From: Shigella phage ESh24
Direction: 5' to 3' (one strand)
DNA: 64,000 bases
Sequence record: ON528734
Under the pieces are notes generated by a model, which saw only the letters and a program-made list of their open reading frames with translations, searched no databases and had not been told where the DNA came from. The stretch's first letter is position 1. Every line of letters starts with the position of its first letter. The translations under genes and the position numbers were made by a program. Shown in pieces: positions 20,117 to 21,522 of this stretch.

Positions 20117-20189
20117 TGGGAATTAGCCAAGTTGGTAAGGCATAGCACTTTGACTGCTAGATGCAAAGGTTCGAGTCCTTTATTCCCAG
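20117..20189 (+). tRNA. tRNA-Gln (anticodon TTG)
   Basis: Cloverleaf: acceptor tgggaat/attccca, anticodon loop ctTTGac, T-arm ggttcgagtcc; no encoded CCA. Confidence 0.85.
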
Positions 20190-20190
20190 C

Positions 20191-20277
20191 GCGAGAATGG
20201 TCAAATTGGTAAAGGCACAGCACTTAAAATGCTGCGGAATGATTTCCTTGTGGGTTCGAGTCCCACTTCTCGCACCA
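20191..20277 (+). tRNA. tRNA-Leu (anticodon TAA), type II
   Basis: Acceptor gcgagaa/ttctcgc, anticodon loop ctTAAaa, long variable arm, 3' CCA encoded. Confidence 0.85.
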
Positions 20278-20282
20278 AATTT

Positions 20283-20356
20283 GCGGATATCGTATAATGG
20301 CATTACCTCAGACTTCCAATCTGATGATGTGAGTTCGATTCTCATTATCCGCTCCA
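20283..20356 (+). tRNA. tRNA-Gly (anticodon TCC)
   Basis: Acceptor gcggata/tatccgc, anticodon loop cTTCCaa, T-arm gagttcgattctc, CCA encoded. Confidence 0.85.
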
Positions 20357-20402
20357 ATTTATGACTCGTCGTGAGACGCTCAGTTCTTTATTAGGGACTG
20401 AT

Positions 20403-21011
20403 ATGCATTTTTATCTTTATAAAATAACAAATAAAATTAATAATAAAATTTATATTGGTGTGCATTCTACCGAAAATTTAGATGATGGATATATGGGTTC
20501 TGGTAAATTATTAAAAAGAGCCCAAGATAAATATGGTATAGAAAATTTTTCTAAAGAAATATTAGAGTATTTTGACGATAAAGAATCTATGCTTGAAGCC
20601 GAGAAAAATATTGTCACAGAAGAGTTTTTAAATAGACCAGATGTGTATAATTTAAAACTTGGAGGTGAAGGTGGATGGGATCATATAAATAATTATCCTA
20701 TGACAGATCAGCAACGCGAATTAATTTCATTGGGTGTTAAAAAGGCACATTCTAATGGAAAATTAAAAGGATGGTCTTCAAATGGATTAATGAAGAATGG
20801 CTTTGCTGGTAAAACTCATTCTCAAGAAGCTAAACGTAAAATAGCAAAAGCAAACGAAGCAAAAGTTTCTGTGGATGAAAGAAAAAGAAGAATAGAAATT
20901 TCTAAATTATATGATTTTTCTAAACGTGGCGAATTGTCTAAATATGCTAAGCATATTGGCGTAAGTCATACTCAAGCAAAAAGAATTCTAAATCAAATTA
21001 ACAATATATAA
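20403..21011 (+). CDS. segB: GIY-YIG homing endonuclease in the tRNA cluster
   Basis: GIY-YIG motif FYLYKITNKINNKIYIGVHSTENLDDGYMGSGKLLKRA; start ATG 20403 (RBS aggga), alternative ATG 20361. Confidence 0.8.
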   Translation: MHFYLYKITNKINNKIYIGVHSTENLDDGYMGSGKLLKRAQDKYGIENFSKEILEYFDDKESMLEAEKNIVTEEFLNRPDVYNLKLGGEGGWDHINNYPMTDQQRELISLGVKKAHSNGKLKGWSSNGLMKNGFAGKTHSQEAKRKIAKANEAKVSVDERKRRIEISKLYDFSKRGELSKYAKHIGVSHTQAKRILNQINNI

Positions 21012-21017
21012 ATATTT

Positions 21018-21107
21018 GGAGGCGTGGCAGAGTGGTTTAATGCACCGGTCTTGAAAATCGGCAGTCGCTCCGGCGACTCATAGGTTCAAATCCTATCGCC
21101 TCCGCCA
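21018..21107 (+). tRNA. tRNA-Ser (anticodon TGA), type II
   Basis: Acceptor ggaggcg/cgcctcc, anticodon loop cTTGAaa, long variable arm, CCA encoded. Confidence 0.85.
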
Positions 21108-21112
21108 GTTTT

Positions 21113-21188
21113 GCTGATTTAGCTTAGTAGGTAGAGCAACTCACTTGTAATGAGAAGGTCGGCGGTTCGATTCCGTCAATCAGCACCA
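21113..21188 (+). tRNA. tRNA-Thr (anticodon TGT)
   Basis: Acceptor gctgatt/aatcagc, anticodon loop cTTGTaa, T-arm ggttcgattcc, CCA encoded. Confidence 0.85.
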
Positions 21189-21189
21189 A

Positions 21190-21264
21190 GGCCCTGTAGC
21201 TGGAAGGTTCAAGCAAGCGACTCATAATCGCCAGATGGTGGTTCAATTCCACCCAGGGCCACCA
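21190..21264 (+). tRNA. tRNA with anticodon CAT (Ile2 or Met; Ile by position in T4)
   Basis: Acceptor ggccctg/cagggcc, anticodon loop ctCATaa, T-arm ggttcaattcc, CCA encoded. Confidence 0.8.
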
Positions 21265-21276
21265 AATTATGAATTA

Positions 21277-21363
21277 GGGGAGTTATCCCGTAGAGGTAGC
21301 GGTGTGGACTGTAAATCCATTGTCATTGCGACTCGGGTGGTTCGACTCCATCACTCCCCACCA
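21277..21363 (+). tRNA. tRNA-Tyr (anticodon GTA), type II
   Basis: Acceptor ggggagt/actcccc, anticodon stem-loop gtgga-ctGTAaa-tccat, long variable arm, T-arm ggtgg-ttcgact-ccatc, CCA encoded. Confidence 0.75.
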
Positions 21364-21367
21364 ATTT

Positions 21368-21442
21368 GGATGTGTAGCTCAATGGCAGAGCGATCGCCTG
21401 TTAAGCGATTGGTTATAGGTTCGAATCCTATCACGTCCGCCA
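21368..21442 (+). tRNA. tRNA-Asn (anticodon GTT)
   Basis: Acceptor ggatgtg/cacgtcc, anticodon stem-loop atcgc-ctGTTaa-gcgat, T-arm ggttcgaatcc, CCA encoded. Confidence 0.8.
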
Positions 21443-21446
21443 AATA

Positions 21447-21522
21447 CGAGGCATAGCTCAGAAGGAAGAGCAAGGACCTTCTAAGTCCTAGGTCGTAGGT
21501 TCGATCCCTACTGCCTCGACCA
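21447..21522 (+). tRNA. tRNA-Arg (anticodon TCT)
   Basis: Acceptor cgaggca/tgcctcg, anticodon stem-loop aggac-cTTCTaa-gtcct, T-arm ggttcgatccc, CCA encoded. Confidence 0.85.

What the first reader, a model, noticed from the sequence alone, without database searches (positions are those of the whole stretch)
20117..21522. tRNA cluster differs from T4: Tyr and Asn present, Pro absent, segB between Gly and Ser
Nine tRNA genes fold into cloverleaves with anticodons Gln-TTG, Leu-TAA, Gly-TCC, Ser-TGA, Thr-TGT, CAT (Ile2/Met), Tyr-GTA, Asn-GTT and Arg-TCT. T4 is described as encoding eight (Gln, Leu, Gly, Pro, Ser, Thr, Ile, Arg). Here no Pro gene fits between Gly and Ser, where the GIY-YIG gene segB sits instead, and two extra tRNAs lie between Ile and Arg. 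This marks the phage as a distinct T-even lineage and may reflect codon-usage adaptation or replacement of host tRNAs depleted by defence anticodon nucleases.
Basis: partly seen in the sequence, partly recalled or inferred. Interest (0 to 1): 0.45.

Follow-up and report, generated by a model that had tools for sequence, protein, structure and literature searches.

The report
T4-like tRNA operon with homing endonuclease
This is the ordinary tRNA gene cluster of a T4-like phage; it differs from T4's only because two selfish homing-endonuclease genes have each displaced different tRNA genes, and dozens of sequenced phages already show the same layout.

Summary
ARAGORN and Rfam both call nine tRNAs at 20117-21522: Gln, Leu, Gly, then a GIY-YIG gene, then Ser, Thr, CAT, Tyr, Asn, Arg. 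There is no tRNA-Pro anywhere in the window.

The interpretation needs correcting in three ways.
- **T4 is the odd one out.** Endonuclease-free relatives, including the closest genome Shfl2, carry Gln-Leu-Gly-Pro-Ser-Thr-Ile2-Tyr-Asn-Arg. Tyr-Asn lies contiguous in about 395 phage records. T4 lost both tRNAs where its segB sits.
- **The gene between Gly and Ser is not T4 segB.** It shares SegB's catalytic half (96% amino-acid, 99.3% DNA identity) but has an unrelated C-terminal half that probably binds DNA. Full-length relatives in Klebsiella/Raoultella phages sit between tRNA-Gly and tRNA-Pro. Here Pro is cleanly deleted.
- **The layout is a presence/absence polymorphism, not a lineage marker.** Fifty-four records (RB51, RB68, AR1, HY01 and others) already have it.

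The CAT tRNA is Ile2-type. The tRNA-Asn carries the exact preferred cleavage site of T4 SegB. The tRNA-Tyr is near-identical to T6's, which published work links to escape from the Septu defence system.

Verdict: real, well explained, already known, low interest.

The parts
20024..20048 (+). Likely T4-type middle (MotA-dependent) promoter of the tRNA operon: TGCTTTA box at 20024-20030, a 12-nt spacer, then TATTAT at 20043-20048
   Evidence: Read by eye from the sequence. PMC2330249 states that a middle promoter just upstream of the cluster drives the T4 tRNA operon. This is an inference; the sigma-70 scan does not cover this promoter type.
20117..20190 (+). tRNA-Gln (TTG)
   Evidence: ARAGORN; Rfam 66 bits; 74/74 identical to the T4 gene
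20191..20277 (+). tRNA-Leu (TAA)
   Evidence: 87/87 identical to T4, T2 and T6
20283..20356 (+). tRNA-Gly (TCC)
   Evidence: 73/74 identical to T4
20357..20402 (+). Leader of the endonuclease cassette. The cassette begins 5 nt after the CCA end of tRNA-Gly. A hairpin at 20380-20401 buries the Shine-Dalgarno GGGA (20394-20397).
   Evidence: Homology to endonuclease-free alleles stops at 20361. The hairpin is seen. The same leader occurs in T6 segB and in the Klebsiella-phage cassette. An analogous hairpin is reported for T4 segB (PMC2330249).
20403..21011 (+). Free-standing GIY-YIG homing endonuclease gene, 202 aa; the longer ORF from 20361 is probably not used. The catalytic half (20403-20690) is shared with T4/T6 SegB. 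The C-terminal half (20691-21008) belongs to a different family: a weak NUMOD3 motif plus predicted helices, probably DNA-binding.
   Evidence: Pfam GIY-YIG; PHROG 314 homing endonuclease, E 2.6e-54. Full-length homologs align end to end. The AlphaFold N-domain matches the I-TevI catalytic domain. All homologs start at the Met encoded at 20403.
21018..21107 (+). tRNA-Ser (TGA)
   Evidence: Homology to endonuclease-free alleles resumes at 21017.
21113..21188 (+). tRNA-Thr (TGT)
21190..21264 (+). tRNA with anticodon CAT, of the Ile2 (AUA-reading, lysidine) type. It is a different allele from T4's tRNA-Ile.
   Evidence: Its best E. coli match is a gene annotated tRNA-Ile, 81.6% identical over the full length. 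It is 47/75 identical to T4 and 75/75 to T2, RB68, L007 and L008.
21277..21363 (+). tRNA-Tyr (GTA), class II with a long variable arm
   Evidence: ARAGORN; Rfam 30.2 bits. It is 85-87/87 identical in T2, T6, RB68, L007 and L008. The only differences sit in the segments read here as the anticodon and T stems and would keep pairing, G-C versus G-U (by eye). The T6 ortholog is expressed (PMC13096335).
21368..21442 (+). tRNA-Asn (GTT)
   Evidence: 74 bits; 75/75 identical to T2
21418..21444 (+). Exact copy of the preferred 27-bp recognition site of T4 SegB, at the 3' end of tRNA-Asn
   Evidence: One exact match, none expected by chance. Compared with tRNA-Ser it carries the five discriminating bases G6, A16, G18, A26 and A27 named in PMC2330249.
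21447..21522 (+). tRNA-Arg (TCT), T2-type allele
   Evidence: 75/76 identical to T2 and 48/76 to T4
21539..21889 (+). ORF of 116 aa, function unknown (PHROG 3355), lying inside the operon; absent from T4
   Evidence: Annotated homologs are RB68_139, T2_136 and Shfl2p136.
21886..22006 (+). rnaD (species 2 stable RNA); coordinates approximate
   Evidence: Alignment to the annotated T4 and RB68 genes
22012..22152 (+). rnaC (species 1 stable RNA). Its tRNA-like 3' part is what ARAGORN miscalls as tRNA-Phe(aaa). Coordinates approximate.
   Evidence: no Rfam family matches
22203..22236 (+). Intrinsic terminator that ends the operon
   Evidence: A 10-bp stem with 7 G-C pairs followed by TTTTT

Best explanation
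The region is the tRNA operon of a Tequatrovirus (T4-like coliphage). A middle promoter is followed by nine tRNAs, an embedded homing-endonuclease gene, a small ORF, the stable RNAs rnaD and rnaC, and a terminator.

The background array in this phage group is Gln-Leu-Gly-Pro-Ser-Thr-Ile2-Tyr-Asn-Arg. Two different free-standing GIY-YIG endonuclease cassettes circulate in it, and each displaces tRNA genes.
- T4-type segB occupies the Tyr-Asn position. Its preferred cleavage site lies in tRNA-Asn.
- The cassette seen here starts 5 nt after tRNA-Gly. tRNA-Pro is deleted from end to end, leaving a 15-nt AT-rich joint that supplies the stop codon.

The window enzyme combines the SegB catalytic domain with the C-terminal module of a separate family. 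That family normally lives at the Gly|Pro junction of tRNA clusters.

Inferred, not shown: in mixed infections the enzyme cuts endonuclease-free genomes near the Gly-Pro junction and is copied in by break repair. This spreads the 'endonuclease plus, Pro minus' allele.

The tRNAs themselves serve the AT-rich phage messages. Tyr and Asn codons are about twice as frequent as in E. coli. By analogy with T6, the tRNA-Tyr can also buffer against Septu or retron-Eco7 cleavage of host tRNA-Tyr.
For: - **tRNA calls:** nine tRNAs and no Pro.
- **Synteny:** the annotated T4, T2, T6 and RB68 operons line up with this one.
- **Endonuclease-free arrays:** 10- and 11-tRNA arrays that include Pro, Tyr and Asn occur in L008, L007 and Shfl2. 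Shfl2 is the closest genome over 25 kb, at 95.6% identity.
- **Counts in the phage collection:** Gly-Pro-Ser contiguous in 448 records; Tyr-Asn contiguous in 395; T4-type segB 3' half in 123; this window's layout in 54.
- **Breakpoints:** homology to endonuclease-free alleles ends at 20361 and resumes at 21017, exactly bracketing the Pro gene.
- **Domain structure:** the N-half is 96% identical to T4 SegB and the C-half 23%. Against P0002 the N-half is 72% and the C-half 83%, the reverse of the usual pattern, which points to a recombinant.
- **Coherent family:** 25 full-length homologs align end to end.
- **Home site:** in Klebsiella/Raoultella phages the homologous cassette has the same leader, lies between tRNA-Gly and tRNA-Pro, and has its stop codon inside the first 10 nt of Pro. 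Sixteen records show this.
- **tRNA association:** every homolog examined lies inside a tRNA cluster, several next to Pro.
- **Fold:** the catalytic domain matches I-TevI.
- **SegB site:** the exact T4 SegB site is present in tRNA-Asn (PMC2330249).
- **Codon usage:**
- **tRNA-Tyr:** 85/87 identical to T6's with an identical variable arm. T6 tRNA-Tyr versus Septu is described in PMC13096335.
Against: - No cleavage or homing data exist for this enzyme. Its target is inferred only from insertion positions.
- Whether Pro was lost at insertion or afterwards is unresolved. No Tequatrovirus with Gly|endonuclease|Pro was looked for systematically.
- The C-terminal helix-turn-helix is predicted but not confirmed. 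Foldseek gives only weak DNA-binding-domain hits, and the NUMOD3 match is just below Pfam's cut-off.
- Record counts include RefSeq/GenBank duplicates and are not corrected for phylogeny.
- The E. coli codon frequencies used for comparison are recalled from memory.
- Protection by a single-copy tRNA-Tyr is only partial in T6, and that tRNA is itself cleaved by Septu (PMC13096335).
Confidence: 0.8

Rival explanations
1. The gene between Gly and Ser is the true ortholog of T4 segB that has simply moved, or been truncated, within the cluster. This is the first reader's reading and also the RB51/RB68 annotation, 'truncated SegB-like protein'.
For: The N-terminal 95-117 residues are 83-96% identical to T4 SegB, and the DNA there is 99.3% identical. 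GenBank annotators named it segB, SegB-like or segD.
Against: The C-terminal 105 residues have no detectable similarity to T4 SegB. They align over their whole length, at 41-83% identity, with a separate family of about 200-aa endonucleases. So the protein is complete, not truncated. Its position differs from T4 and T6. The phage keeps the preferred T4 SegB site intact in its own tRNA-Asn, which a genome encoding genuine SegB would be expected to lack; T4 and T6 both lack tRNA-Asn.
Confidence: 0.08
2. Tyr and Asn were specifically acquired by this lineage as an adaptation, either for codon supply or to replace host tRNAs destroyed by defence nucleases. Loss of Pro would likewise be adaptive.
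For: TAT and AAT are used at 36.5 and 47.2 per 1000 codons. Asn makes up 6.1% and Tyr 4.7% of residues, and Pro only 3.3%. Septu and retron-Eco7 target tRNA-Tyr, and phage tRNA-Tyr counteracts them (PMC13096335, PMC11555353). Tyr and Asn are both colicin E5 targets (own knowledge; colicin E5 is discussed in PMC10264068).
Against: Tyr-Asn is the majority state (395 records) and is present in the endonuclease-free arrays and in T2. It is therefore retained, not gained. T4's lack of these tRNAs coincides with the segB cassette, whose preferred site is in tRNA-Asn (PMC2330249). The Pro gap is filled exactly by a selfish element. No defence system that targets tRNA-Asn was found in the papers consulted. 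Selection may still help maintain the genes.
Confidence: 0.1
3. The tRNA-Tyr call is a pseudogene or a false positive, so the phage has eight working tRNAs.
For: Its Rfam score of 30.2 bits is barely above the 29-bit threshold. The minimum-free-energy fold is not a clean cloverleaf, with z = -0.9.
Against: ARAGORN calls it in every phage examined. The sequence is 85-87/87 conserved across T2, T6, RB68, L007 and L008, and the only changes would preserve base pairs if the stems are as read here. It has anticodon GTA, discriminator A73 and a long variable arm, which are the E. coli tyrosine identity elements (own knowledge). T6's copy is detected by northern blot and rescues infection when overexpressed (PMC13096335).
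Confidence: 0.02

Closest known systems
Phage T4 tRNA gene cluster (Gln Leu Gly Pro Ser Thr Ile | segB | Arg, rnaD, rnaC)
   Same: Same genomic position, downstream of trna.2. Gln, Leu and Gly genes are the same, 73-87 nt each and identical or off by one base. The rnaD/rnaC tail and terminator match. A GIY-YIG endonuclease is embedded in both.
   Different: T4 has Pro but lacks Tyr and Asn. T4's endonuclease sits between Ile and Arg. T4's CAT-tRNA and Arg-tRNA are different alleles, 47/75 and 48/76 identical. T4 lacks the 116-aa ORF.
tRNA regions of RB51, RB68, AR1, HY01, RB18, KIT03 and others (54 GenBank/RefSeq records)
   Same: Identical gene order, including the endonuclease between Gly and Ser, no Pro, Tyr-Asn present, the 116-aa ORF, and rnaD/rnaC. 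The endonuclease protein is 99-99.5% identical.
   Different: Individual tRNA alleles differ. For example, RB68's Gln, Asn and Arg are 66/74, 63/75 and 63/77 identical to the window's. The window genome as a whole is only about 95-96% identical to any record.
T4/T6 SegB homing endonuclease (PMC2330249, PMC13096335)
   Same: Catalytic GIY-YIG domain, 96-97% identical. The leader and its SD-sequestering hairpin are shared with T6. Both are embedded in a tRNA operon.
   Different: The C-terminal half is unrelated, the insertion site differs, and a different tRNA is displaced. The recognition site is therefore presumably different. SegB-driven amplification of neighbouring genes is shown only for T6 SegB.
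Gly|endonuclease|Pro cassette of Klebsiella/Raoultella T4-like phages (for example Klebsiella phage Mineola)
   Same: Homologous over the full protein length (61-78% identity). The leader and the left junction, 5 nt after tRNA-Gly CCA, are homologous.
   Different: There tRNA-Pro is retained, and the ORF ends inside its first 10 nt. Here Pro is deleted, and the N-terminal half has been replaced by, or homogenised with, the SegB type.
I-TevI, the model GIY-YIG homing endonuclease
   Same: Two-domain design. The predicted catalytic domain superposes on I-TevI structures 1MK0 and 1LN0 (Foldseek probability 1.0, TM 0.61-0.65). A NUMOD3-like motif and C-terminal helices are present.
   Different: It is free-standing rather than intron-encoded. 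No zinc finger is evident. There is no sequence-level match to any PDB entry.

Membership tests
T-even (Tequatrovirus) tRNA operon | Tandem tRNA genes on one strand between trna.2 and e.8, followed by rnaD/rnaC and a terminator | tested here: met
T-even (Tequatrovirus) tRNA operon | High nucleotide identity of the flanks and shared tRNAs to reference T-even genomes | tested here: met
   94-100% identity per block to T4, T2, RB68 and Shfl2
T4 SegB (orthologue) | GIY-YIG catalytic domain of the SegB type | tested here: met
   91/95 aa identical; DNA 99.3% identical over 275 bp
T4 SegB (orthologue) | C-terminal DNA-recognition region homologous to T4 SegB | tested here: not met
   23% identity in a forced global alignment; no BLASTP alignment beyond residue 117
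T4 SegB (orthologue) | Located between tRNA-Ile/Tyr and tRNA-Arg, replacing tRNA-Asn | tested here: not met
   It lies between Gly and Ser. tRNA-Asn, with the preferred SegB site, is intact.
T4 SegB (orthologue) | Cleaves the 27-bp TpsiC-based site, with a preference for tRNA-Asn | not testable with these tools
   Needs an in vitro cleavage assay
GIY-YIG free-standing homing endonuclease | GIY-YIG domain with intact catalytic motif and an I-TevI-like fold | tested here: met
   Pfam PF01541, 26.8 bits against a cut-off of 22.6. Y17 and G19, which are essential in T6 SegB, are invariant in the family alignment (PMC13096335). Foldseek matches 1MK0/1LN0 with probability 1.0.
GIY-YIG free-standing homing endonuclease | Present or absent at an otherwise conserved locus in close relatives | tested here: met
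   Shfl2, L007, L008, T4 and T2 have Gly-Pro-Ser with no insert; 54 records have the insert
GIY-YIG free-standing homing endonuclease | Separate C-terminal DNA-binding module (NUMOD3 / helix-turn-helix) | tested here: inconclusive
   NUMOD3 scores 20.1 bits against a cut-off of 20.4. Helices at residues 141-201 are predicted with pLDDT of about 70-90. Only weak structural hits to DNA-binding domains were found.
GIY-YIG free-standing homing endonuclease | Site-specific double-strand cleavage of the endonuclease-free allele and biased inheritance | not testable with these tools
   Needs biochemistry and phage crosses
tRNA-Ile2 (CAU anticodon, lysidine-modified, reads AUA) | Closer to host tRNA-Ile(CAU) than to tRNA-Met; acceptor-stem C4-G69 and C5-G68 | tested here: met
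   The best E. coli matches are genes annotated tRNA-Ile, 81.6% identical over 75/75 nt. The acceptor stem GGCCCTG/CAGGGCC is visible in the sequence. The TilS determinants are from my own knowledge.
tRNA-Ile2 (CAU anticodon, lysidine-modified, reads AUA) | C34 converted to lysidine in vivo | not testable with these tools
   Needs mass spectrometry of the tRNA
Anti-defence phage tRNA-Tyr (T6 versus Septu; T5 versus retron-Eco7) | Sequence equivalence to the tested T6 tRNA-Tyr, including the variable arm | tested here: met
   85/87 identical, and the segment read here as the variable arm is identical
Anti-defence phage tRNA-Tyr (T6 versus Septu; T5 versus retron-Eco7) | Raises plating efficiency on hosts carrying the defence system | not testable with these tools
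   Needs plaque assays with a tRNA-Tyr deletion mutant

The most novel reading that the evidence does not exclude
The window enzyme may be a natural domain swap. It would carry the SegB catalytic head on the DNA-binding tail of a Gly|Pro-junction endonuclease family, retargeting cleavage from tRNA-Asn to the Gly-Pro junction.

If that is true, competing homing endonucleases, rather than translational selection, decide which tRNAs a T-even phage carries. That includes the anti-defence tRNA-Tyr. Each endonuclease would delete the tRNA next to its own site.

The enzyme might also drive T6-style segmental amplification of neighbouring tRNAs under defence pressure.
Probability: 0.35. Interest if true: 0.4.

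Novelty: already known. Interest (0 to 1): 0.2.

Why it matters
The finding matters little on its own. The same gene order has been deposited and annotated in dozens of phage genomes since RB51. Tyr and Asn in T2L, RB1 and RB3 were described in 2008, and the SegB-tRNA association was described in 2026.

The useful corrections are two. T4, the textbook reference, is the atypical genome. And tRNA content in these phages is a poor lineage marker, because selfish endonuclease cassettes reshuffle it.

One modest new detail may interest people who engineer GIY-YIG nucleases or study how phages keep anti-defence tRNAs. The endonuclease here appears to be a recombinant of the SegB catalytic domain with the recognition module of a family whose closest relatives sit at the tRNA-Gly/Pro junction.

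Tried and rejected
- **IMG/VR survey.** A survey seeded with the flanking Trna.2 protein returned only 7 loci. That was too few for statistics, though two of them supplied the endonuclease-free 10- and 11-tRNA arrays. I used counts from the annotated phage collection instead.
- **PDB sequence search.** A search with the endonuclease found nothing.
- **Fold search.** The full model confirmed only the catalytic domain. The C-terminal domain gave only low-probability helix-turn-helix hits.
- **Rfam on rnaD/rnaC.** An E-value search found no real family.
- **Defence nuclease for tRNA-Asn.** I looked for a published one. The PARIS paper does not mention Asn, and PrrC170 was not rescued by tRNA-Asn. 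No link is claimed.
- **116-aa ORFs.** I tested whether the ORF upstream of the Klebsiella-phage tRNA cluster is related to the window ORF at 21539-21889. It is not.
- **The longer ORF start at 20361.** Rejected. No homolog extends that far, and the Met encoded at 20403 aligns with the start of every family member.
- **ARAGORN's 'tRNA-Phe(aaa)'.** Rejected as a tenth tRNA. It lies within rnaC, is 97 nt long, and Rfam's tRNA model does not score it.
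Full report

Yes.

| tRNA | Coordinates |
|---|---|
| Gln-TTG | 20117-20190 |
| Leu-TAA | 20191-20277 |
| Gly-TCC | 20283-20356 |
| Ser-TGA | 21018-21107 |
| Thr-TGT | 21113-21188 |
| CAT | 21190-21264 |
| Tyr-GTA | 21277-21363 |
| Asn-GTT | 21368-21442 |
| Arg-TCT | 21447-21522 |

Rfam's tRNA covariance model independently finds all nine above threshold. Tyr is marginal at 30.2 bits against a threshold of 29. No tRNA-Pro is found anywhere in the 64 kb.

The 660-bp gap between Gly and Ser holds an ORF with a GIY-YIG domain. 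The T4 reference record carries eight tRNAs: Gln, Leu, Gly, Pro, Ser, Thr, Ile, Arg.

ARAGORN's tenth call, 'tRNA-Phe(aaa)' at 22057-22153, falls inside the stable RNA rnaC. Alignment to the annotated T4 and RB68 genes shows this. It is a tRNA-like fold, not a tRNA.

**2. What the locus is**

The window is a Tequatrovirus. Over 25 kb its best matches are Shigella phage Shfl2, Citrobacter phage CrRp10 and Escherichia phage ECML-134, at about 95-96% identity.

The tRNA region is syntenic with the T4 tRNA operon. It lies downstream of trna.4/trna.3/trna.2 and is followed by rnaD, rnaC and a strong intrinsic terminator at 22203-22226. A MotA-box-like TGCTTTA (20024-20030), followed 12 nt later by TATTAT, lies upstream of tRNA-Gln (sequence). 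This fits the middle promoter said to drive the T4 operon (PMC2330249).

A 116-aa ORF of unknown function (PHROG 3355) lies between tRNA-Arg and rnaD. It is present in T2, RB68 and Shfl2 but absent from T4.

**3. The layout is already known**

The 2.3-kb region matches 1071 phage records. Fifty-four of them cover at least 80% of it, which requires the endonuclease in the same place. These include RB51, RB68, AR1, HY01, RB18 and KIT03. Their annotations list the same nine tRNAs and a 'SegB-like', 'segD' or 'homing endonuclease' gene.

**4. T4 is the exception, not this phage**

Gene orders in the genomes compared:

| Genome | Gene order | Source |
|---|---|---|
| L008 (metagenomic T4-like contig) | Gln Leu Gly Pro Ser Thr CAT Tyr Asn Arg, no endonuclease | |
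| L007 (metagenomic T4-like contig) | same, with His added before Arg | |
| Shfl2 (closest genome) | same 10-tRNA array as L008 | |
| T2 | Gln Leu Gly Pro Ser \| ORF \| CAT Tyr Asn Arg | |
| T6 | Gln Leu Gly Thr CAT Tyr \| segB \| Arg | |
| T4 | Gln Leu Gly Pro Ser Thr Ile \| segB \| Arg | |

Counts in the phage collection:

| Feature | Records | Source |
|---|---|---|
| Tyr-Asn contiguous | 395 | |
| Gly-Pro-Ser contiguous | 448 | |
| T4-type segB 3' half | 123 (67 full length) | |
| This window's layout | 54 | |

The 2008 SegB paper already reported that T2L, RB1 and RB3 lack segB and carry extra tRNAs. It also found that SegB's preferred cleavage site lies in their tRNA-Asn gene (PMC2330249).

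The window's tRNA-Asn is 75/75 identical to T2's. It contains the 27-mer GGTTCGAATCCTATCACGTCCGCCAAA at 21418-21444. Compared with tRNA-Ser, that 27-mer differs at exactly the five positions the paper names as discriminating: G6, A16, G18, A26 and A27. This phage would therefore be a recipient for T4/T6 SegB homing.

**5. The gene between Gly and Ser is not T4 segB**

BLASTP against T4 SegB aligns only residues 15-131, at 83% identity. Nothing aligns beyond that.

At the DNA level, 20417-20691 is 99.3% identical to T4 segB. Positions 20348-20691, which include the leader, are 97.4% identical to T6.

Splitting the protein at the conserved GGEGGWDHI motif gives these identities to the window enzyme:

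| Compared with | N-half identity | C-half identity |
|---|---|---|
| T4 SegB | 96% | 23% |
| P0002 (metagenomic) | 72% | 83% |
| P0005 | 73% | 62% |
| Shigella phage SdyM_006 protein | 61% | 41% |

Twenty-five homologs of about 200 aa align end to end. They share a conserved 'F-x-GK-x-HS-x-E-x-K-x-KIS' motif, which resembles NUMOD3. They also share a C-terminal 'GVSHTQ-RR' helix pair. The protein is therefore complete, not 'truncated' as RB51 and RB68 annotate it.

The C-half is closer to P0002 than the N-half is. This reverses the pattern seen with every other homolog. It indicates that the N-half was recently exchanged with, or homogenised against, the T4/T6 SegB type.

An AlphaFold model (pLDDT 81) gives a confident N-domain that superposes on the I-TevI catalytic domain (1MK0, 1LN0; probability 1.0). 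It also gives confident C-terminal helices, but these hit DNA-binding domains only weakly.

The likely start codon is the ATG at 20403, not 20361. All homologs begin at that Met. A GGGA Shine-Dalgarno sequence lies 5 nt upstream, buried in a 9-bp hairpin at 20380-20401. T4 segB is reported to have a comparable translational-control hairpin (PMC2330249).

**6. Where this endonuclease family lives, and what happened to Pro**

Homology between the window and the endonuclease-free alleles (T4, T2, L007, L008) stops at 20361 and resumes at 21017. The first point is 5 nt after the CCA of tRNA-Gly. The second is 1 nt before tRNA-Ser. The missing segment is half of the 10-nt spacer plus the entire tRNA-Pro.

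The contigs that encode P0002 and P0005 are T4-like Klebsiella/Raoultella phages such as Mineola. Sixteen records contain the full Gly-endonuclease-Pro block. In them, the homologous cassette starts at the same point after tRNA-Gly. It carries the same leader (TGACTCGTCG...GGAACTGAT-ATG). It ends with its stop codon inside the first 10 nt of a retained tRNA-Pro.

The window ORF follows those sequences up to the first base of Pro. It then diverges into 15 AT-rich bases (AATATATAAATATTT). These supply a TAA stop and run straight into tRNA-Ser. So the cassette's home is the Gly|Pro junction, and in the Tequatrovirus version Pro is deleted end to end.

Other family members also lie inside tRNA clusters, often beside Pro:
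- L021: Pro|endonuclease|Gln.
- Erwinia phage FBB1: Pro|endonuclease|Ala.
- SdyM_006: endonuclease|Gly.

This agrees with the general SegB-tRNA co-localisation reported in 2026 (PMC13096335).

**7. Not a lineage marker**

Shfl2, the nearest genome, lacks the endonuclease and has Pro. RB68 shares the layout but carries different alleles of Gln (66/74), Asn (63/75) and Arg (63/77).

The window's CAT and Arg tRNAs are T2-type (75/75 and 75/76), while its Gln is T4-type (74/74). A 100-bp sliding comparison shows the best-matching genome changing block by block. The region is a recombinational mosaic.

**8. The individual tRNAs**

- **CAT tRNA.** It is only 47/75 identical to T4's tRNA-Ile. Its best E. 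coli matches are genes annotated tRNA-Ile, at 81.6% over the full length. Its acceptor stem has the C4-G69 and C5-G68 pairs that TilS uses (own knowledge). It is therefore an Ile2-type tRNA that reads AUA.
- **tRNA-Tyr.** It is 87/87 identical to L008's, 86/87 to T2's and 85/87 to T6's. The two variable positions sit in the segments I read as the anticodon and T stems, and would be G-C/G-U alternations there (by eye). The variable arm is identical to T6's.
- **tRNA-Asn.** It occurs as two alleles 12 nt apart. By eye, the changes in the anticodon and T stems are compensatory.

**9. What the tRNAs do**

Codon counts come from 91 ORFs and 17,850 codons in the window. The E. coli figures are recalled from memory.

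| Codon | Window, per 1000 | E. coli, per 1000 (recalled) |
|---|---|---|
| TTA | 28.5 | about 14 |
| GGA | 21.4 | about 8 |
| TCA | 18.4 | about 7 |
| ACA | 17.7 | about 7 |
| ATA | 13.2 | about 4 |
| AGA | 11.5 | about 2 |
| CAA | 23.5 | about 15 |
| TAT | 36.5 | about 16 |
| AAT | 47.2 | about 18 |

Asn makes up 6.1% and Tyr 4.7% of residues. Pro is only 3.3%, and CCA is used at 11.7 per 1000. Extra Tyr and Asn capacity is therefore plausible, and loss of Pro is the cheapest loss.

[quoted passage not shown] It shows that T4, which has no tRNA-Tyr, is sensitive. Deleting T6's tRNA region increases sensitivity, and amplified T6 tRNA-Tyr restores infection (PMC13096335). Retron-Eco7 behaves similarly with T5 (PMC11555353).

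Because the window's tRNA-Tyr is nearly identical to T6's, a partial buffering role is a reasonable inference. It is untested here. I found no defence system documented to target tRNA-Asn.

**10. Verdict**

The differences from T4 are real, but they reflect turnover of homing-endonuclease cassettes in a conserved 10-tRNA array. 'segB' is a misnomer for a domain-swapped relative whose closest full-length relatives sit at the Gly|Pro junction.

The layout is already deposited and annotated many times, so novelty is low. The one small new point is the chimeric nature and inferred target of the endonuclease. It needs a cleavage assay and phage crosses to confirm.

Noticed in passing
window 21539-21889 (+): A 116-aa ORF of unknown function (PHROG 3355; no Pfam hit) sits inside the tRNA operon between tRNA-Arg and rnaD, and its stop codon overlaps the start of rnaD. 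T4 lacks it; there Arg abuts rnaD. T2 (T2_136), RB68, RB51 and Shfl2 have it.
   Followed up: partly
window 22057-22153 (+), within rnaC (~22012-22152): ARAGORN calls a 97-nt 'tRNA-Phe(aaa)' here. It is the tRNA-like 3' part of species 1 RNA, with an acceptor-like stem and a GGTTCGAATCC T-arm. Among the loci that carry this region (T4, T2, RB68, Shfl2), it is called as Phe only in the window, which has A7 where aligned relatives have A5; L010 has a comparable 'tRNA-Stop(tta)' call downstream of its tRNA-Arg. Neither rnaC nor rnaD has an Rfam family, and their functions remain unknown.
   Followed up: partly
L004 3721-4122 (-) = phage T2 gene T2_137: In T2, a 133-aa ORF occupies the place of tRNA-Thr. 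It shares the C-terminal NUMOD3-like plus 'VSHTQARK' module of the window endonuclease (PHROG 16521) but has no GIY-YIG domain. This looks like a third endonuclease-related cassette or remnant in the same tRNA array.
   Followed up: partly
window 21190-21264 and 21447-21522, compared with L002 (T4): Tequatroviruses carry two deeply divergent alleles of the CAT tRNA and of tRNA-Arg, only 47/75 and 48/76 identical. The T4/T6 alleles travel with T4-type segB, which suggests co-conversion of the flanking tRNAs with the cassette. tRNA-Asn and tRNA-Gln also have two alleles each.
   Followed up: partly
L007 5748-5823: One endonuclease-free relative carries an eleventh tRNA, His-GTG, between Asn and Arg. 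Tyr, Asn and His are three of the four GUN-anticodon (queuosine-family) tRNAs, which are the set cleaved by colicin E5 (own knowledge). This may or may not be a coincidence.
   Followed up: no
window 22306-22869 (+): A 187-aa ORF lies just downstream of the operon terminator (PHROG 2280, unknown function). It has a sub-threshold Pfam hit to cytochrome b562 (18.3 bits against a cut-off of 30), probably reflecting only a helical bundle.
   Followed up: no
one search hits H1 (CrRp10), H6 (PBM-1), H34 (CM8): Some phages with the window-type layout span 0.5-1.3 kb more than the query across this region. CM8 is annotated with an additional HNH endonuclease. Further mobile insertions therefore exist in the same operon.
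   Followed up: no
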